27,386 bases of DNA, from the IMG/VR virus record IMGVR_UViG_2648501669_000002, positions 1-27,386 of that record. One strand, written 5' to 3'. Under the pieces are notes generated by a model that was given only the letters and a program-made list of their open reading frames with translations, was not told where the DNA came from and searched no databases. Position numbers and translations under genes: made by a program. Positions 18,011-23,733 of the stretch are shown here, piece by piece (within the stretch, counting starts at the first letter, position 1; each line of letters starts with the position of its first letter). This stretch comes from a virus. Its lineage: Duplodnaviria; Heunggongvirae; Uroviricota; Caudoviricetes.

Positions 18011-18720
18011 CGCGCCCCGTGATTAACGAGTCACAACTCCGGCAGGTTCGCCGCGCCATCAGAGAGGCAGAGCTTCCGCCGGCAAAGGCCAGAAAGCTGC
18101 TGGTTCGCATTGCGAAATACGGCCTGATACCGGCTGCACGACGCAATGTGAAAGCACAGCGAACACCGGAGGGGGTAGCCTGGGCACCACGAAAAAGACC
18201 GGATAAAGCCAGCGGCAGGTATAAAAACAAAATGCTGCTGGGGCTGCCGAAGCTGCTGGCCATCAGGGTTGACGGCAGCGGGAAAAGTGTCCGCCTTTTC
18301 TTCAAAAAAGGGGATTACAACACCGGCTCTCATGGTGGGGCGGTCGCGTGGGTGCAACAGCACGGCGCAACCATCAAAAGCCGCGCCACAAAACGCCGGG
18401 ACAGCGAAGCCATGCGCACCCGTCCCGCCACACGACGGCAGGCAGAACGCCTTCTTTCTCTGGGCTTTCGCGCCCCCGTCGGCGCAGTCAGCAAAAAAAC
18501 CGGACGCAGAGGACGCAGAAAGCCTTCTCTGAAATGGATTATGGAAAACATGAGTATGGCGCAGGCCGGACTGGTGATCAGCATTCTGAAAGGCGAGCAG
18601 AAAAAACGTGTATGGGAAATCAAAATCCCCTCCCGCGCATTTCTGGGAGCCAGCGATGCTGAATTTGCCCGCATTCTGGAAGCGCAGCTGCGCAGCCTGC
18701 ATTACGGCGGCACGAGATAA
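18007..18720 (+). CDS. Virion morphogenesis / tail completion protein, gpS-like, with extended basic C-terminal region
   Basis: Track ORF of 237 aa overlapping the R stop; the position matches P2 S but it is about 90 aa longer, so the family call is tentative. Confidence 0.5.
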   Translation: MTRPVINESQLRQVRRAIREAELPPAKARKLLVRIAKYGLIPAARRNVKAQRTPEGVAWAPRKRPDKASGRYKNKMLLGLPKLLAIRVDGSGKSVRLFFKKGDYNTGSHGGAVAWVQQHGATIKSRATKRRDSEAMRTRPATRRQAERLLSLGFRAPVGAVSKKTGRRGRRKPSLKWIMENMSMAQAGLVISILKGEQKKRVWEIKIPSRAFLGASDAEFARILEAQLRSLHYGGTR

Positions 18721-18739
18721 CAAAATCAGGAGACAAATT

Positions 18740-19888
18740 ATGACCTGGCCATCTGTCACAATTGAACAGTACAACACGTTCAGTAGCTCGCCGGACGGCG
18801 TGGAAAATACGCTGCTGTTTGTGGGCAATGCACAAAACAACAAAGGTAAGGTTCTGCCGGTTAATGCCAACAGCGATCTGGATGAACTGCTGGGAACAAA
18901 CGCCAGCCCGCTGAAGAACTTCCTTCGGTCTGCGCTGACCAATGCCGGACAGAATGCCTTTTTCTATGTTGCCGTTCTGCCGGAAGCCGGCAAAGGCAAA
19001 GAAGCGACGCCAGCCTGCCAGGTATGGCAGAACGCCATACTGGCGGCTCAGGAAACTGTTTCAGTTGAAGGCGTGGTGATCACCGAACCGGTCAGCACGA
19101 AGGATGACATCAACGCCATACAGGCGTTACGTCAGACCATCATCAATAAATATCAGCGCCGCATCTGGTTCATTCTGACCATTGCCGCCAATAACGGCAG
19201 CAAAACCTGGGCAGATTACGTTGCTGAACTGACCACGCTACAGGAAGGCATCGCCGCCCCGCAAATCATGCTGGTTCCGGAAATTTTTGGATTTGAACCG
19301 GGCGTTCTTGCCGGCCGTCTGTGTAACAGCGCCGTCACCATTGCTGATAGTCCGGCGCGTGTGGCAACCGGAGCGCTGTCCGCACTGAAGACCACGGAAC
19401 GCCCGAAAGACAGCGCAGGGCAGGCAATTGATCTCGACACTCTGCAGGCACTGGCAACCGCCCGCTACAGCGTGCCCATGTGGTATGCCGACTATGACGG
19501 CCTTTACTGGGCTGACGGTGTAACACTTGAGGTGGAAGGCGGGGACTACAACGTCATTGAGCATGTCCGCATTGCTGATAAGGTGGCGCGCCGCGTGCGG
19601 CTGATGGCCATCCCCAAGATTGCCGACCGCTCGCTGAACAGCACGCCGGGCAGCATTGCCGCACATGAAACGCTGTTTGCCCGCCCACTGCGTGCCATGG
19701 CGAAATCCATGCAAATTAACGGCATCACGTTTCCGGGCGAAGTGAAATCGCCCCGGAAAGGCGACGTAGTTATCACCTGGCAGGACGAAAAGACGGTCAG
19801 CATCAGCATTGTCGTCCGCCCTTACGCCTGCCCTAAAACCATCAAAGTGGGCATTCAGCTGGATAAATCTCTGGAGGAAAACGCATGA
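18740..19888 (+). CDS. Major tail structural protein, sheath-like (382 aa)
   Basis: In-frame Met 45 of track ORF 18608..19888 with CAGGAG SD 7 nt upstream; size and position (before a tube-like gene, chaperone and tape measure) fit a contractile-tail sheath. No clear similarity to P2 FI recalled. Confidence 0.5.
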   Translation: MTWPSVTIEQYNTFSSSPDGVENTLLFVGNAQNNKGKVLPVNANSDLDELLGTNASPLKNFLRSALTNAGQNAFFYVAVLPEAGKGKEATPACQVWQNAILAAQETVSVEGVVITEPVSTKDDINAIQALRQTIINKYQRRIWFILTIAANNGSKTWADYVAELTTLQEGIAAPQIMLVPEIFGFEPGVLAGRLCNSAVTIADSPARVATGALSALKTTERPKDSAGQAIDLDTLQALATARYSVPMWYADYDGLYWADGVTLEVEGGDYNVIEHVRIADKVARRVRLMAIPKIADRSLNSTPGSIAAHETLFARPLRAMAKSMQINGITFPGEVKSPRKGDVVITWQDEKTVSISIVVRPYACPKTIKVGIQLDKSLEENA

Positions 19889-20340
19889 CGACCCGCATTA
19901 ACGGCATGGCGTTTGACACTTTTATCGGTGGAACGGATATCCATGTGAAAAGCATCTCACTGGACATCAGCGATGAAAGCGCCGTTGCCAAAACCCGTGG
20001 CATCCCTGACGGCAAACTGCGCGGCCCTGTCAGTGCCGAAGGTGAAATCGAAATGAGTACCCGCAGCTTTAACCAGCTCGGGGAAGTGGCTGCTCAGGCG
20101 GGATCGTGGCGTGACCTGCCGCCAATGGATTTTGTGTTTTACGCCAATACGGGAACCGAAGAAATCCGCGTTGAAGCCTTCGGTTGTGAGCTGATGCTTT
20201 CCGGCCTGTTAAGCATTGACACCGAGAGCGCAGATCTGACCACGCACAAAATCAAGTACGTGGTGGCAAGCCCTGACTTTGTGCGTATCAACGGCGTGCC
20301 CGTTCTCTCAGAGAACGACGTGCGCGGACTGATGGGGTGA
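19885..20340 (+). CDS. Tail tube-like protein (151 aa)
   Basis: Track ORF overlapping the sheath-like stop (ATGA); size and position fit a tube protein. Family call by synteny only. Confidence 0.45.
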   Translation: MTTRINGMAFDTFIGGTDIHVKSISLDISDESAVAKTRGIPDGKLRGPVSAEGEIEMSTRSFNQLGEVAAQAGSWRDLPPMDFVFYANTGTEEIRVEAFGCELMLSGLLSIDTESADLTTHKIKYVVASPDFVRINGVPVLSENDVRGLMG

Positions 20341-20343
20341 ATC

Positions 20344-20640
20344 ATGCAGGAGCATGAGCGCACCATTATCACTCTGGGCATTCTGGGCGGAATCGCTGCC
20401 GCAAGTCGGGTGCTGGCTGGCGCAGAGCCGATTACGTTGCGGTTGTTTGTGGGCCGAACCCTGCTGGGGAGCGCGCTGGGTGTTTCTGCCGCTGCCCTGC
20501 TGGTTCGCTACCCGAACCTTGACCCACTGGCCATTGCCGGCGCAGGCACCGCAATGGGCGTTGCCGGTTACCAGATTGTTGAAATCTTCCTGCGTCATAT
20601 GCGCCGGAAGCTGGGCGAGAAAGAGAACAAAGAGGAGTAA
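20344..20640 (+). CDS. Putative holin (98 aa, three predicted TM segments and a charged C-terminus)
   Basis: Track ORF. Hydrophobic stretches (IITLGILGGIAAASRVLAG; LLGSALGVSAAALLV; LAIAGAGTAMGVAGYQIV) followed by RHMRRKLGEKENKEE; sits immediately upstream of the endolysin. Confidence 0.6.
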   Translation: MQEHERTIITLGILGGIAAASRVLAGAEPITLRLFVGRTLLGSALGVSAAALLVRYPNLDPLAIAGAGTAMGVAGYQIVEIFLRHMRRKLGEKENKEE

Positions 20641-20645
20641 CAGCA

Positions 20646-20753
20646 ATGCTGTCCCGCAGGGAACAAAAAGCTGCCGCCATTGCCTGGAAAATTATCCGGG
20701 CACTGTGGCACTGGCTGCACAAACCTCAACAACCCCGTAAGGAGCAAAAATGA
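20646..20753 (+). CDS. Possible small lysis-associated ORF (35 aa)
   Basis: Not in the track. ATG at 20646 with GAGGAG upstream; stop overlaps the endolysin ATG (ATGA). Translation MLSRREQKAAAIAWKIIRALWHWLHKPQQPRKEQK is amphipathic and basic. Could instead be untranslated spacer. Confidence 0.25.
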   Translation: MLSRREQKAAAIAWKIIRALWHWLHKPQQPRKEQK

Positions 20754-21091
20754 AACTCTCTGATAAACAACAAAAATTTACCGTCATGATCGGAAAACTC
20801 ATCCAGTTTGCCCATCAGCGCGGTTATGGCCTGACGTTCGGTGAAGCGTACCGCACGCCAGAACAGGCAAAACTCAACGCACAAAAGGGATCAGGCATTG
20901 CCAACAGCCTGCACTGTCAGCGGCTGGCCGTGGATTTTAACCTGTTTATTAACGGTGAATATCAGACCCGCACAGAGGCCTACCGCGAGCTGGGCGAGTA
21001 CTGGGAATCCCTTGGTGGCGCATGGGGCGGTCGTTTTAAAAACCGCCCGGATGGCAATCATTTCAGCCTTGAGCACGACGGCGTGCGCTGA
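20750..21091 (+). CDS. Endolysin, peptidase M15 (VanY-like zinc D,D- or L,D-peptidase) family
   Basis: Track ORF of 113 aa with AAGGAG SD. Zinc-ligand pattern H-x6-D (SLHCQRLAVD) and a C-terminal DGNHFSLEH as in M15 peptidase endolysins. Confidence 0.75.
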   Translation: MKLSDKQQKFTVMIGKLIQFAHQRGYGLTFGEAYRTPEQAKLNAQKGSGIANSLHCQRLAVDFNLFINGEYQTRTEAYRELGEYWESLGGAWGGRFKNRPDGNHFSLEHDGVR

Positions 21092-21098
21092 TTTTACG

Positions 21099-21128
21099 CT
21101 TAATAAGCCTTCCTGCAGGCTTATTAAG
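21099..21128 (+). terminator. Near-perfect 30-bp palindrome / hairpin after the endolysin
   Basis: 12-bp stem (CTTAATAAGCC.../...GGCTTATTAAG) followed by a moderately U-rich stretch; 8 nt downstream of the endolysin stop. Confidence 0.4.
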
Positions 21129-21155
21129 CCCTCTTATTCTTGACTTTAAAAGGAA

Positions 21156-21449
21156 ATGATGATGAACGATAAAAACACCCAGACTACCGCAGAGAACACC
21201 ATCACTTTGCAGGTCGGCGAGCATGAACTGACGTTTATCCCGACCGTTAAAGCCTACAACGATCTGCAGAACGACTTCATGCCGGATAACAAAATCGCGC
21301 CGCTGAAAAACTACCTGCGCCGCATCGTGATTAAAGAGCACCGCGATCTGCTGAACCAGTTGCTGGAAAAACCAGGAATGCCGGCCAGCCTGGCAACAGC
21401 CGTGAATAACGAGTTTGTGCCGGAAGTGGAAATCACCGTAAAAAAATAA
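21156..21449 (+). CDS. Tail assembly chaperone (P2 gpE / lambda gpG analogue)
   Basis: Track ORF of 97 aa immediately upstream of the tape measure gene; it ends in the A-run that forms the slippery site. Confidence 0.7.
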   Translation: MMMNDKNTQTTAENTITLQVGEHELTFIPTVKAYNDLQNDFMPDNKIAPLKNYLRRIVIKEHRDLLNQLLEKPGMPASLATAVNNEFVPEVEITVKK

Positions 21450-21637
21450 AAAGCCATCTGGGGGCCATTGATCGCAATGACCTTACCCGGATGCTGATCC
21501 TGCGCCGCCACTGGCTGCCCGGCGAGGATGACTCGCCGCAGTCACTGGCTGCCGCCGTCTGGCTGGATAACCACTACTGGGAAAATATGAGCATCGCCGT
21601 CAATAACGGCATTATCCGTGCTTTTAAGGGATCGTAA
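21156..21637 (+). CDS. Frameshift-extended chaperone product (gpE+E-prime / G-T analogue), about 160 aa
   Basis: Chaperone frame joined to the -1 frame at 21440-21446; the conserved position of this chaperone frameshift upstream of tape measure genes is established knowledge. Confidence 0.5.
21440..21446 (+). other. Programmed -1 ribosomal frameshift slippery heptamer A_AAA_AAA
   Basis: Read directly. The -1 frame stays open from the heptamer for about 64 codons to the TAA at 21635-21637, which overlaps the tape measure ATG (TAATG). Confidence 0.55.
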
Positions 21638-23733
21638 TGTCACAACAGCGCCTTGAATTACTTCTTGAACTGACAGACCGCCTGACAAGGCCGTTGCGTG
21701 CAGCCGGGCGACAGGTTCAGGGATTTGCTGCAACAAGTCGGGGAGCCTTTCGGGACATTGCTACCGGAGGCGCTGCGCTCTGGGGAGTGGGTGCAGCCAT
21801 TCAGGGGGCACTGATGCCAGCCATTGAAATGGACAGGGCGCTCGGTGAGGTGAAATCACTGGGCGTCGCAGAGTCCGGATTGCGTAAACTCAGCCGCGCC
21901 GCCGTTGATTTCACTATGGAATACGGCGGGGCTGCGCAGGATTTTGTGCGTGCTTCTTACGACATCCAGTCAGCCATTGCCGGGTTAACTGACGATGAGC
22001 TGTCCCGCTTCACCACCGCATCAGCAACGGTGGCAGCAGCAACCAAATCCAGCAGCCAGACCATTACCGCCTACATGGGCACCATGTACGGCATCTTTAA
22101 AGACCAGGCTGATGCCATGGGAAAAAGCAAATGGGTGGAGCAGGTCGCCGGGCAAACCGCCACCGCCGTGCAAATGTTTAAAACAACCGGCGATAACATG
22201 TCAGCAGCGTTCACCACGCTGGGTGCCAGTGCAAAAGCGGCCGGTATTGATGCGGCTGAACAGTTCGCCGTGCTGGGACAACTACAGGCCACAATGAGTG
22301 GCAGCGAGGCCGGGACAAAATACAAGGCATTTCTTGCCGCAGTAGGCAGCGCCCAGAAAAAGCTGGGGCTTAATTTCGTGAATAAAGACGGCACGATGAA
22401 AAGTGTTGTCGAGATCATGAAACTTATCAGGGGTAAATTTGGTGATCTGTCAAAAGTGGCTGATTCCGATTTGCTGAAAAGCGCCTTTGGCTCCGATGAA
22501 GCTGTGGCCATGATTAAATTACTCAATGCGGACATTGGCGGACTTGAAAAGAATATCGCCACGCTGGGCAATATCAAAGGTATGGATAAGGCTGTCGAAA
22601 TGGCGCAGGCCATGGCTGATCCATGGGAACAGGCCGCCGCAATTATTAACGGCATTCGCATCGAAATCGGCACGCAGTTGCTGCCTGTTCTGTACCCGTT
22701 TATCCAGAAAAGCAACGAAGGCGGTAAATCCTTTGTTGCCTGGTTACGTCTGTATCCCAATATCACACGGGCTATTGGTTTACTGTCTGCCGCCCTGCTG
22801 GGCATTGCCGCAGTGGGTGCCGTTGTCAACATTATGGTGGGTGTGGCGAAGTTTGTCTGGACAGGACTGCGGCTGGTCTGGCTGGCAGCAGTTGCACCCC
22901 TGAAGATTCTCATTCTGCTGAAACGCACACTGACGGCTACCATGTGGGCGTTCACTGTAGTTGCCCGAACGGTCAGGGCGCTGTATCTGGCCATGTCCAT
23001 TGCTATGGGAACATACAACGTCAAAGCAAAAATTCAGCTGGCGCTGCTGAAATTACAGCGCGCCGGACTCTGGCTTTATTCTGTTGCGCTGGGTGCCGCC
23101 GGCATAGCAATGAAAATCTACACCGCAGTCACCAGCGGAGCTGCAATTGCAACACAGTTACTTTTCAGCCCCATCACATTAATCATCCTGGCACTGGCTG
23201 CGCTGGGCGTGGGCATTTATTTCCTGATCACCCGCTGGGATGAGATTAAAGCCGCGCTGATGGATACCGCCGCCTTTCAGTGGGTGGCTGAAATGGTCGG
23301 CAGTATGGGGGCATGGTTCGGCAATGCATGGAACACAATCCAGGACGGCTGGAATGCACTGGTTAACTATTTTTCCACGCATTCACCTCTGGACGCCCTG
23401 AAGGATATCGCCGGCGGCATCCTGAACATTTTCAGTAACCTCTGGGAACTGGTGAAACAGTCCTTCAGTGATTCATGGGGCTGGATTGTAGGCAAGCTCA
23501 ACATGATCCCCGGCGTCAATATCGACACACCGGAAAGCACAGGAAGTGGCGAAGGCTCCGTATTAACCGGCGGCAAAGCCATCAGTGCGGGACCGGGCGG
23601 CATTGCGGCAGAGATGCAGAACAACAGCGAAAACCAGACCACCATCGACAACTCCCGTCGTGTGGTTAACGTCAATGTGCAGGATCCATCCCCTGCCCGT
23701 CTTAACGAGTGGATGGAGCTGCATGCATACTGA
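21637..23733 (+). CDS. Tail tape measure protein
   Basis: Track ORF of 698 aa; alpha-helical, Ala/Gly-rich sequence with hydrophobic segments in the C-terminal half; directly after the chaperone frameshift. Confidence 0.8.
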   Translation: MSQQRLELLLELTDRLTRPLRAAGRQVQGFAATSRGAFRDIATGGAALWGVGAAIQGALMPAIEMDRALGEVKSLGVAESGLRKLSRAAVDFTMEYGGAAQDFVRASYDIQSAIAGLTDDELSRFTTASATVAAATKSSSQTITAYMGTMYGIFKDQADAMGKSKWVEQVAGQTATAVQMFKTTGDNMSAAFTTLGASAKAAGIDAAEQFAVLGQLQATMSGSEAGTKYKAFLAAVGSAQKKLGLNFVNKDGTMKSVVEIMKLIRGKFGDLSKVADSDLLKSAFGSDEAVAMIKLLNADIGGLEKNIATLGNIKGMDKAVEMAQAMADPWEQAAAIINGIRIEIGTQLLPVLYPFIQKSNEGGKSFVAWLRLYPNITRAIGLLSAALLGIAAVGAVVNIMVGVAKFVWTGLRLVWLAAVAPLKILILLKRTLTATMWAFTVVARTVRALYLAMSIAMGTYNVKAKIQLALLKLQRAGLWLYSVALGAAGIAMKIYTAVTSGAAIATQLLFSPITLIILALAALGVGIYFLITRWDEIKAALMDTAAFQWVAEMVGSMGAWFGNAWNTIQDGWNALVNYFSTHSPLDALKDIAGGILNIFSNLWELVKQSFSDSWGWIVGKLNMIPGVNIDTPESTGSGEGSVLTGGKAISAGPGGIAAEMQNNSENQTTIDNSRRVVNVNVQDPSPARLNEWMELHAY

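What the first reader, a model, noticed from the sequence alone, without database searches (positions are those of the whole stretch)
21440..21637. Tail chaperone -1 programmed frameshift at A_AAA_AAA
Seen: the chaperone ORF ends ...TVKK-stop at a run of seven A (21440-21446); the -1 frame is open from there for about 64 codons and terminates in TAA overlapping the tape measure ATG. Established: a conserved translational frameshift yields two chaperone isoforms upstream of tape measure genes (lambda G/GT, P2 E/E+E-prime).
Basis: partly seen in the sequence, partly recalled or inferred. Interest (0 to 1): 0.5.

Follow-up and report, generated by a model that had tools for sequence, protein, structure and literature searches.

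The report
Phage tail chaperone -1 frameshift site
This is a real but ordinary example of a well-known phage trick: a run of seven A's at the end of a tail-assembly chaperone gene lets a few ribosomes slip back one base and add a 63-residue tail domain, which databases currently mislabel as a separate protein of unknown function.

Summary

- **The site.** The chaperone ORF (21156-21449, Pfam Phage_TAC_10) ends GTA AAA AAA TAA. The A7 run (21440-21446) is in the X_XXY_YYZ phase. The -1 frame is open from 21410 to a TAA (21635-21637) that overlaps the tape-measure ATG.
- **Conservation.** In 139 of 142 related loci the downstream segment lies in the -1 frame. Of 119 distinct junctions, 117 have A_AAA_AAA or A_AAA_AAC at this position directly before the stop, and the other two keep A_AAG. 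In 51 of them the zone where both frames are open is only 10 nt.
- **Coding evidence.** Codon periodicity switches from frame 0 to frame -1 at the heptamer. dN/dS in the -1 frame downstream is 0.18.
- **No separate start.** In 51 of 119 junctions the extension has no start codon before its conserved core. The ATG that RefSeq uses (21491) has no Shine-Dalgarno sequence.
- **Chaperone identity.** The predicted fold of the chaperone part matches the HK97 tail assembly chaperone.

This is a new member of a known kind (lambda G/GT, P2 E/E+E'). It belongs to the HP1-like family, where one GenBank record (phage ACA1) already annotates the shift.

The useful by-products are that Pfam DUF6890 and phrog_7050 are the frameshift-encoded domain, and that the 3' hairpins differ between clades.

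The parts
21156..21449 (+). Tail assembly chaperone gene, the 'G-like' product. It is 97 aa from the first of three ATGs. RefSeq relatives start at the third ATG (21162), giving 95 aa.
21440..21446 (+). Slippery heptamer A_AAA_AAA, with zero-frame codons GTA AAA AAA.
   Evidence: Phase checked. A_AAA_AAA (29) or A_AAA_AAC (88) occurs at the same position in 117 of 119 distinct junctions. The codon before it is always NNA although the residue varies: GTA 69, ATA 23, CTA 11, GCA 5.
21447..21449 (+). Zero-frame stop codon TAA directly after the heptamer.
   Evidence: A stop follows the heptamer immediately in all 108 aligned junctions: TAA 74, TGA 22, TAG 12. It is maintained by the rare codons CTA (65) and ATA (21), or CTG (22), in the -1 frame, and never by CTC, CTT, ATC or ATT. 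This is not universal: in ACA1 and phi3 the stop lies 21 nt downstream.
21410..21449 (+). Zone in which both the zero frame and the -1 frame are open. Any shift must occur here.
   Evidence: The -1 frame is closed by TAA at 21407-21409. In 51 of 119 relatives this zone is only 10 nt and holds little beyond the heptamer.
21446..21637 (+). -1 frame extension, the 'T-like' domain. It has 63 codons (IKSHLGAIDRNDLTRMLILRRHWLPGEDDSPQSLAAAVWLDNHYWENMSIAVNNGIIRAFKGS) followed by TAA.
   Evidence: Pfam PF21830 DUF6890, E = 8e-24. phrog_7050. dN/dS is 0.18 and third-position periodicity is in the -1 frame from +10 after the heptamer. RefSeq annotates only 21491-21637, as a separate 'DUF6890 family protein'.
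21452..21495 (+). Predicted irregular 17-bp hairpin starting 5 nt after the heptamer. It is a candidate 3' stimulator.
   Evidence: MFE is -18.4 kcal/mol. The 91-nt segment gives z = -3.33, with 0 of 200 shuffles as stable. In its clade 92% of cells are paired against 31-45% when slid, but there is only one compensatory pair and four sequences break pair 33:61. Support is weak to moderate.
21626..21631 (+). Shine-Dalgarno sequence AAGGGA of the tape measure gene. It lies inside the conserved FKG codons at the end of the extension.
   Evidence: Duplex energy with the anti-SD is -5.2 kcal/mol, 5 nt before the ATG at 21637.
21637..23733 (+). Tail tape measure gene, whose ATG overlaps the extension's TAA.
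   Evidence: Pfam PF10145. phrog_28, tail length tape measure protein, E = 2e-90.
18608..20340 (+). Tail sheath gene (DUF2586, phrog_907) and tail tube gene (HP1 Orf24-like, 19885-20340). These are the upstream context of the tail module.
   Evidence: A holin gene (20344-20640) and an M15 endolysin gene (20750-21091) lie between the tube and chaperone genes, as in HP1 and ESSI-2.

Best explanation
The window carries the tail module of an HP1/ESSI-2-like (Peduoviridae) E. coli prophage.

Most ribosomes translating the chaperone gene terminate at TAA 21447 and make the short chaperone (95-97 aa). A small fraction slip back one nucleotide on A_AAA_AAA (21440-21446) and read AAA AAA ATA AAA AGC... 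in the -1 frame. They terminate at the TAA that overlaps the tape measure start. The result is a 158-160 aa fusion: the chaperone plus a 63-residue DUF6890 domain.

By analogy with lambda G/GT and P2 E/E+E', the shared N-terminal part would coat the tape measure protein. The rarer extension would recruit the tube protein, so the shift sets a fixed ratio of the two forms.

The hairpin 5 nt downstream probably raises the efficiency on this heptamer, which responds to stimulators.

What is shown and what is inferred:
- **Shown:** the sequence anatomy, its conservation, selection in the -1 frame and the chaperone fold.
- **Inferred:** that slippage is ribosomal, its efficiency, the role of the hairpin and of the adjacent stop, and the function of the extension.
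For: - **Anatomy.**
- **Family assignments.** Phage_TAC_10 plus DUF6890, directly upstream of the tape measure gene.
- **Frame conservation.** The extension is in the -1 frame in 139 of 142 loci. Two of the three exceptions have indels elsewhere in the gene, and the third has a 1-nt insertion after the heptamer.
- **Heptamer conservation.** It is conserved and phased in 117 of 119 junctions, and the other two keep A_AAG. The two-frame zone is only 10 nt in 51 of 119.
- **Distant members.** The same site occurs in HP1, K139, phiO18P and YenM324 (A_AAA_AAC), ACA1 (A_AAA_AAA) and phi3 (A_AAA_AAG).
- **Nucleotide-level constraint.** The preceding codon is always NNA although the residue varies.
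- **Periodicity and selection.** Third-position entropy switches from frame 0 (1.59) to frame -1 (1.58) at the heptamer. dN/dS is 0.18 downstream in the -1 frame. The other frames contain stops in 31-39 of the 39 representatives.
- **No independent start.** There is no ATG, GTG or TTG before the conserved LRR core in 51 of 119 junctions, including ESSI-2. ATG 21491 has an SD energy of -1.1 kcal/mol, against -5.2 to -9.3 for real starts.
- **Published efficiency.** In E. coli reporters, A_AAA_AAA gives 0.4% -1 shifting alone and 24.8% with a strong pseudoknot (PMC4066793 Table S3).
- **3' structure.** The 70 nt after the heptamer are more structured than control segments across 39 clade representatives (mean z -1.44 against -0.24, p = 4e-6). 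In the ESSI-2-like clades a stem covaries, with pair 35:51 as A:U in 12 sequences and G:C in 9.
- **Precedent.** GenBank OR438928 (phage ACA1) annotates a joined CDS at the homologous site.
Against: - There are no protein data. Neither the two products nor their ratio has been observed.
- A_AAA_AAC, used by most relatives, is a poor shifter in E. coli reporters (0.16-0.74%), so efficiency may be very low.
- Several clades (2, 5, 6, 19) show no 3' structure. The window clade's hairpin has only one compensatory pair and several disruptions, so a stimulator is not established.
- A stop placed directly after a heptamer reduced shifting in a bacterial reporter (PMC4373837). The conserved adjacent stop therefore cannot be called a stimulator.
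- No sequence homology to lambda or P2 chaperones was detected, so the function of the extension rests on analogy.
Confidence: 0.85

Rival explanations
1. Transcriptional slippage. RNA polymerase inserts one extra A on the A7 run. Ordinary translation of the A8 transcripts then yields the same fusion protein.
For: The window has an uninterrupted A7 run. AAAAAAA is under-represented in E. coli genes in all three phases, which the authors suggest may be due to transcriptional slippage or to a high rate of indel mutation (PMC4066793). The protein outcome would be identical.
Against: - Efficient bacterial RNA polymerase slippage is documented for runs of about 9 A or T (PMC5009743).
- 88 of 119 relatives have only A6 followed by C, and phi3 has A6G.
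- The run is always in the exact X_XXY_YYZ phase, with the preceding codon forced to NNA. Ribosomal re-pairing requires this; polymerase slippage does not.
Confidence: 0.08
2. Two independent genes, as RefSeq annotates them. On this reading, the DUF6890 ORF is translated on its own from ATG 21491 as a 48-aa protein, with no frameshift.
For: PGAP annotates a separate 'DUF6890 family protein' in E. coli genomes. Pfam holds DUF6890 as a stand-alone family.
Against: - ATG 21491 has no Shine-Dalgarno sequence (-1.1 kcal/mol, weaker than the background mean of -2.7).
- The start PGAP chooses moves between relatives, giving products of 29 to 63 aa.
- 51 of 119 junctions have no ATG, GTG or TTG before the conserved LRR core, and 91 of 119 have no ATG. 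ESSI-2 has none.
- The 15 codons between the heptamer and 21491 are under purifying selection in the -1 frame.
- The -1 frame is closed just upstream of the heptamer in every case.
Confidence: 0.04
3. The -1 ORF is a non-functional by-product or a decaying remnant. The A run is incidental and no long form is needed.
For: An A7 run and a 65-codon open frame are each unremarkable by chance in this window. Some copies are visibly decayed (L026, L046, L092, P0081).
Against: dN/dS is 0.18 across 39 diverged representatives. The segment matches Pfam and PHROG families at E = 8e-24 and 8e-29. The heptamer and the frame relationship are conserved from Haemophilus to Vibrio and Pseudomonas phages.
Confidence: 0.02

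Closest known systems
Phage P2 E / E+E' (-1 frameshift at T_TTT_TTG in the FETUD tail operon)
   Same: Both are in Peduoviridae. Both have a small chaperone gene directly upstream of the tape measure gene, a -1 extension of about 50-60 residues that ends at the tape-measure start, and similar product sizes (91 and 142 aa in P2, 97 and 160 aa here).
   Different: - The Pfam families differ: Phage_TAC_7 plus Phage_P2_GpE in P2, Phage_TAC_10 plus DUF6890 here.
- No homology is detectable by profile comparison (probability 0.03-0.3%).
- The heptamer differs (T_TTT_TTG against A_AAA_AAA).
- In P2 the zero frame runs on for 6 more codons after the heptamer before its stop (LSPNSVQ*), and P2 is reported to lack a hairpin (PMC3091744).
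- Here the stop is adjacent and a hairpin is predicted.
Phage lambda G / GT (G_GGA_AAG; conserved G/T frameshift of long-tailed phages, Xu, Hendrix and Duda 2004)
   Same: The logic and gene position are the same. The short form is abundant and the long form rare, about 30:1 in lambda. Neither is in the virion. The -1 domain binds the tail tube subunit (PMC5009743).
   Different: Lambda is a siphovirus with a different heptamer and no sequence similarity. The ratio and binding partners are unknown here.
HP1 orf26, K139 orf30, phiO18P gp36/37, ESSI-2, and ACA1 gp36/gp36a (HP1-like Peduoviridae)
   Same: These are true homologs: the same two Pfam families, with the heptamer at the same V-K-K/N position. 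The ACA1 record annotates a joined CDS with a 'projected programmed frameshift analogous to that in phage P2'.
   Different: The window uses A_AAA_AAA, whereas HP1, K139, phiO18P and ESSI-2 use A_AAA_AAC and phi3 uses A_AAA_AAG. In ACA1 and phi3 the zero-frame stop is 21 nt downstream instead of adjacent. Most of these records, and all the RefSeq E. coli copies I examined, do not annotate the shift.
IS1 insA-insB' (A_AAA_AAC) and IS3-family transposase frameshifts (for example IS600, A_AAA_AAA); E. coli dnaX (A_AAA_AAG)
   Same: They use the same A-rich lysine heptamers read by E. coli tRNA-Lys. A_AAA_AAA and A_AAA_AAC are used naturally by IS elements despite their modest efficiency (PMC4066793).
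   Different: The genes and purposes are unrelated. dnaX has a defined upstream SD and a downstream stem-loop. Here the upstream SD-like signal is weak and confounded with coding.

Membership tests
G/GT-type tail assembly chaperone pair with programmed -1 frameshift (Xu et al. 2004 class) | The gene pair lies between the major tail (tube) gene and the tape measure gene, directly upstream of the latter. | tested here: met
   The order is sheath, tube, holin, endolysin, chaperone, extension, tape measure. The extension's stop overlaps the tape-measure ATG. The lysis genes interposed here are also present in HP1 and ESSI-2.
G/GT-type tail assembly chaperone pair with programmed -1 frameshift (Xu et al. 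2004 class) | The second ORF overlaps the end of the first in the -1 frame and has no initiation signals of its own. | tested here: met
   It is in the -1 frame in 139 of 142 loci. There is no start codon before the conserved core in 51 of 119 junctions. There is no SD at ATG 21491.
G/GT-type tail assembly chaperone pair with programmed -1 frameshift (Xu et al. 2004 class) | A slippery X_XXY_YYZ sequence, in phase, lies within the overlap and is conserved among relatives. | tested here: met
   A_AAA_AAA is at 21440-21446. A_AAA_AAA or A_AAA_AAC occurs in 117 of 119 junctions, and the overlap is 10 nt in 51. Distant phages agree.
G/GT-type tail assembly chaperone pair with programmed -1 frameshift (Xu et al. 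2004 class) | The upstream product has the tail-assembly-chaperone fold. | tested here: met
G/GT-type tail assembly chaperone pair with programmed -1 frameshift (Xu et al. 2004 class) | Two proteins with a common N-terminus are made in a fixed ratio, and both are needed for tail assembly. | not testable with these tools
   This needs western blotting or mass spectrometry and genetics. Only purifying selection on the -1 extension (dN/dS 0.18) speaks to it indirectly.
G/GT-type tail assembly chaperone pair with programmed -1 frameshift (Xu et al. 2004 class) | The shared part binds the tape measure protein and the -1 domain binds the tube subunit. | not testable with these tools
   This is inferred from lambda (PMC5009743). 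No interaction data exist for this family.
Pfam PF10963 Phage_TAC_10 | The score is above Pfam's gathering threshold. | tested here: met
   92.7 bits against a cut-off of 25.7, covering profile positions 1-82 of 82.
Pfam PF21830 DUF6890 | The score is above Pfam's gathering threshold. | tested here: met
   83.6 bits against a cut-off of 23.6, covering profile positions 1-44 of 44, on the -1 frame translation.
P2 E/E+E' family (PF10109 Phage_TAC_7 plus PF06528 Phage_P2_GpE) | There is sequence or profile homology to P2 E and E'. | tested here: not met
   P2 E+E' hits PF10109 and PF06528, and the window protein hits neither. hhalign gives probability 0.03% for the fused profile against P2 E+E' and 0.33% for the DUF6890 profile against the E' profile. 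The two work alike but are not demonstrably the same family.

The most novel reading that the evidence does not exclude
In the HP1-like lineage the recoding signal would be a distinct module: an A-rich heptamer held directly against the zero-frame stop, plus a 3' hairpin that has been replaced repeatedly.

- **Adjacent stop.** It is kept by rare CTA or ATA codons in the -1 frame, in 86 of 108 junctions.
- **Hairpin turnover.** At least four non-homologous stems occur, each starting about 5-11 nt after the heptamer, and some clades have none of these four.

On this reading the ratio of the short and long chaperone forms is tuned by competition between release factor and slippage, and it is re-tuned lineage by lineage.
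Probability: 0.3. Interest if true: 0.45.

Novelty: new member of a known kind. Interest (0 to 1): 0.27.

Why it matters
The biology is textbook: a conserved -1 frameshift in tail chaperone genes. The value is practical.

- **Annotation.** Pfam DUF6890 and PHROG phrog_7050 are both labelled 'unknown function'. They can now be assigned as the frameshift-encoded C-terminal domain of Phage_TAC_10 chaperones (phrog_1214, also 'unknown function').
- **Gene models.** RefSeq PGAP calls the extension as a separate small gene with arbitrary internal starts, giving products of 29-63 aa in the E. coli copies examined. These should become joined CDS features. The chaperone family has at least 655 members in public data.
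- **A natural series.** The family has one site with three heptamers (A_AAA_AAA, A_AAA_AAC, A_AAA_AAG), with the stop adjacent or 21 nt away, and with different 3' hairpins or none. It could be used to study how -1 frameshift efficiency is tuned in bacteria.

Tried and rejected
1. **Homology of DUF6890 to P2 E'.** A shared 'HW.P' motif (RRHWLPGE against IFHWPPSE) looked suggestive. Profile-profile comparison gave probability 0.03-0.33%, so I rejected it as evidence of homology.
2. **L026 as a switch to stop-codon readthrough.** Its extension lies in the zero frame after TGA. Alignment with close relatives shows a single extra A 11 nt after the heptamer, so it is an indel or a sequencing error.
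3. **L046 and L092 as 'in-frame' cases.** Both have indels upstream in the chaperone gene body, and their junctions are normal.
4. **The adjacent stop as a stimulator.** I recalled this from memory. The source says a stop after the heptamer lowered -1 shifting in a bacterial reporter and made it sensitive to release factor (PMC4373837). I make no claim of stimulation.
5. **An upstream SD-like stimulator.** The signal differs statistically from controls (-3.4 against -1.7 kcal/mol, p = 4e-10). It is one homologous site overlapping the conserved P-E-L/V-E/D-I codons, and it is weak (-4.0 kcal/mol in the window). Inconclusive.
6. **A single conserved 3' RNA structure for the whole family.** The partners of the 5' arm differ between clades, so I built no family-wide model.
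7. **Rfam.** No match at E ≤ 1.
8. **PDB by sequence.** Only spurious helical hits to ATP synthase subunit b.
9. **Literature.** No paper mentions DUF6890. The P2 E/E' paper (PMID 12426340, PMC135442) is not held. I did not try to retrieve Xu et al. 2004, so I could not check whether HP1 was in their original list. HP1 is not named in the PRFect paper that re-uses that list.
10. **Open-frame length as a statistic.** It is uninformative, because 29% of random positions have 65 or more open codons.

Full report
**Observation.** The coordinates and the reading in the finding are correct.
- The ORF 21156-21449 on the + strand ends ...EVEITVKK*, with zero-frame codons GTA AAA AAA TAA.
- The seven A's occupy 21440-21446, in the X_XXY_YYZ phase.
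- The -1 frame is closed by TAA at 21407-21409 and is open from 21410 to TAA 21635-21637. The last base of that TAA is the A of the tape-measure ATG.
- A slip on the heptamer would add 63 residues, giving a 160-aa product. It would be 158 aa from the third ATG, 21162, which RefSeq uses and which has the best-spaced Shine-Dalgarno sequence.
- Neither an A7 run nor a 65-codon open frame is unusual in this window. The case rests on context and conservation.

**Context.** The window holds the tail module of an HP1/ESSI-2-like myovirus prophage of E. coli.
- The gene order is sheath (DUF2586, phrog_907), tube (HP1 Orf24-like), holin, M15 endolysin, chaperone (Pfam Phage_TAC_10), tape measure (PF10145, phrog_28), DUF2590 and baseplate J.
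- The 601 bases around the junction occur at 95% identity or more in 41 of 5,426 complete E. coli genomes.
- The -1 translation is itself a strong match to Pfam DUF6890 (E = 8e-24) and to phrog_7050.
- RefSeq annotates that segment as a separate 'DUF6890 family protein'. Its start codon moves from relative to relative, giving products of 29 to 63 aa.

**Comparative test.** I collected 146 sequences holding this gene pair: the window plus 145 loci from E. coli genomes, phage records, IMG/VR and GTDB genomes.
- The DUF6890 segment is in the -1 frame relative to the chaperone in 139 of 142 loci that have both parts.
- The three exceptions are damaged copies. Two have indels elsewhere in the chaperone gene. 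One (L026) has a single extra A 11 nt after the heptamer.
- Of 119 distinct -1 junctions, 88 have A_AAA_AAC and 29 have A_AAA_AAA at exactly this position, always directly before the stop. The other two keep A_AAG, the most shift-prone tetramer in E. coli (PMC4066793).
- In 51 junctions the zone where both frames are open is only 10 nt.
- The codon before the lysines is always NNA although the residue varies (GTA 69, ATA 23, CTA 11, GCA 5). This is a constraint on the nucleotide, not on the protein.
- The same V-K-K/N site is present in Haemophilus HP1, Vibrio K139, Aeromonas phiO18P, Yersinia YenM324, Pseudoalteromonas ACA1 and Pseudomonas phi3. phi3 uses A_AAA_AAG.

**Is the extension translated, and from where?**
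- Across 39 representatives under 85% identical, the most variable codon position switches at the heptamer. Upstream it is the third position of frame 0. From 10 nt after the start of the heptamer onward it is the third position of frame -1.
- dN/dS is 0.29 upstream in frame 0 and 0.18 downstream in frame -1. The other frames contain stops in 31-39 of the 39 representatives.
- This selection covers the 15 codons that precede the only plausible ATG in the window (21491).
- That ATG has essentially no Shine-Dalgarno sequence (-1.1 kcal/mol, against -5.2 to -9.3 for neighbouring genes).
- In 51 of 119 junctions there is no ATG, GTG or TTG before the conserved LRR core, and ESSI-2 is one of these.
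- Independent initiation is therefore very unlikely.

**Is the upstream gene really a tail assembly chaperone?**
- Beyond the Pfam name, an AlphaFold2 model built on 49 family members (pLDDT 76, pTM 0.62) is a β-hairpin followed by four helices.
- Sequence search of the PDB found nothing meaningful.

**Mechanism.**
- The parsimonious reading is tandem -1 re-pairing of tRNA-Lys on A_AAA_AAA.
- In E. coli reporters this heptamer shifts at 0.4% alone, 0.8% with IS911 stimulators and 24.8% with the IS3 pseudoknot. A_AAA_AAC gives 0.16%, 0.19% and 0.74% (PMC4066793 Table S3).
- The window has a predicted 17-bp irregular hairpin (21452-21495, -18.4 kcal/mol) starting 5 nt after the heptamer. The 91-nt segment gives z = -3.33.
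- Family-wide, the 70 nt after the heptamer are more structured than control segments (mean z -1.44 against -0.24; 28% against 4.5% below -2; p = 4e-6).
- The structures are not homologous between clades. The 5' arm starts 5-11 nt after the heptamer, but it pairs with different 3' partners, and four clades have none of the four stems scored.
- In the ESSI-2-like clades the stem is 97% paired, against 3-40% when slid, and one pair alternates between A:U (12 sequences) and G:C (9).
- In the window's own shallow clade the support is weaker: 92% paired, one compensatory pair and several disruptions.
- The stop directly after the heptamer is maintained by the rare codons CTA or ATA, or by CTG, in the -1 frame, and never by their common synonyms. 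It is therefore selected in this lineage.
- Published data show that a stop in this position lowered shifting in a bacterial reporter and made it sensitive to release factor (PMC4373837). ACA1 and phi3 lack the adjacency. Its role is open.
- Transcriptional slippage is a minor rival. It needs runs of about 9 (PMC5009743), most relatives have A6C, and it would not demand the conserved phase.

**Comparison with known systems.**
- This works like lambda G/GT and P2 E/E+E' (PMC5009743; PMC3091744).
- It is not demonstrably homologous to P2's pair. P2 is Phage_TAC_7 plus Phage_P2_GpE, and profile comparisons give 0.03-0.33% probability.
- Its true family is the HP1-like group. There, one GenBank record (Pseudoalteromonas phage ACA1) already annotates a joined CDS with a 'projected programmed frameshift'.
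- The HP1, K139, ESSI-2, phiO18P and phi3 records, and the RefSeq E. coli copies I examined, do not.
- No paper in the library mentions DUF6890.
- The E. coli-wide heptamer survey of Sharma et al. lists five prophage clusters, none of which is this family.

**Verdict.** The finding is a genuine, strongly conserved G/GT-type -1 frameshift site, and it is a new member of a known kind. Interest is low to moderate. The main yield is a functional assignment for DUF6890 and phrog_7050, together with the correction of split gene models. There is also a modest lead on lineage-specific tuning through the choice of heptamer, the adjacent stop and hairpin turnover.

Noticed in passing
window 21315-21323 and 21500-21508: There is a 9-nt direct repeat, CTGCGCCGC. 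It encodes LRR in the chaperone (NYLRRIV, frame 0) and LRR in the extension (ILRRHW, frame -1). Deleting the 185 nt between the copies fuses the two ORFs in frame. This reproduces the architecture of a 96-aa Salmonella Montevideo protein (P0081) that carries both PF10963 and PF21830. It is probably a decayed prophage copy.
   Followed up: yes
L026 (IMGVR_UViG_2551306561_000001) about 1740-1770: In this one relative the DUF6890 segment lies in the zero frame straight after TGA. Compared with phiO18P-like relatives it has one extra A (GGCGCG-A-CGCC) 11 nt after the heptamer. The -1 product would therefore be garbled. This is an indel or a sequencing error, not readthrough.
   Followed up: yes
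window 21098-21129: A 13-bp perfect hairpin (GCTTAATAAGCCT TCCTGC AGGCTTATTAAGC) lies in the 64-nt gap between the endolysin and chaperone genes, followed by CCTCTTATTC. It is terminator-like but has a poor T tract. Relatives such as ESSI-2, HP1 and L005 carry Rz-like spanin genes at this place, and the window has none. It could be an attenuator, an mRNA-stabilising hairpin or a scar of spanin loss.
   Followed up: partly
window 21626-21639: The Shine-Dalgarno sequence of the tape measure gene (AAGGGA) is formed by the conserved F-K-G codons at the end of the extension. The extension's TAA overlaps the ATG. Only frameshifted ribosomes terminate at the tape-measure start, while unshifted ones stop 188 nt upstream. 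The C-terminal 'FKG' conservation may partly reflect the ribosome binding site.
   Followed up: partly
alignment A2 columns 23-82 (related loci L002-L143): At least four non-homologous stems follow the heptamer in different clades:
- Columns 28-35 with 51-58, in ESSI-2-like loci.
- Columns 28-35 with 59-66, in the window clade.
- A local GCGCG-GGTN-CGCGC hairpin.
- Columns 31-38 with 64-71, in Xenorhabdus.
A fifth clade has a long-range pairing to the LRR codons. Four clades have none of the four stems scored. This suggests repeated replacement of the 3' structure.
   Followed up: partly
window 20344-21091: The lysis cassette (holin PF04550 and M15 endolysin) sits inside the tail operon, between the tube and chaperone genes. 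This arrangement is shared with HP1, ESSI-2 and K139 and differs from P2.
   Followed up: no
window 18608-18745: The mechanical ORF for the sheath starts at GTG 18608, but the DUF2586 match begins at residue 47. RefSeq relatives start about 133 nt further in, near 18740 (from L001 coordinates; the exact base was not checked). The first 44 or so codons of the listed ORF overlap the end of the upstream gene, which ends near 18720 by transfer of the L001 annotation. They are probably not translated.
   Followed up: no
P0003-P0049 (E. coli and other Enterobacterales): PGAP treats P2's E' segment the same way as DUF6890. It is annotated as a free-standing 'GpE family phage tail protein' of 39-57 aa, not as part of a joined E+E' CDS. 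Splitting frameshifted chaperones into two genes therefore seems to be systematic in RefSeq.
   Followed up: partly
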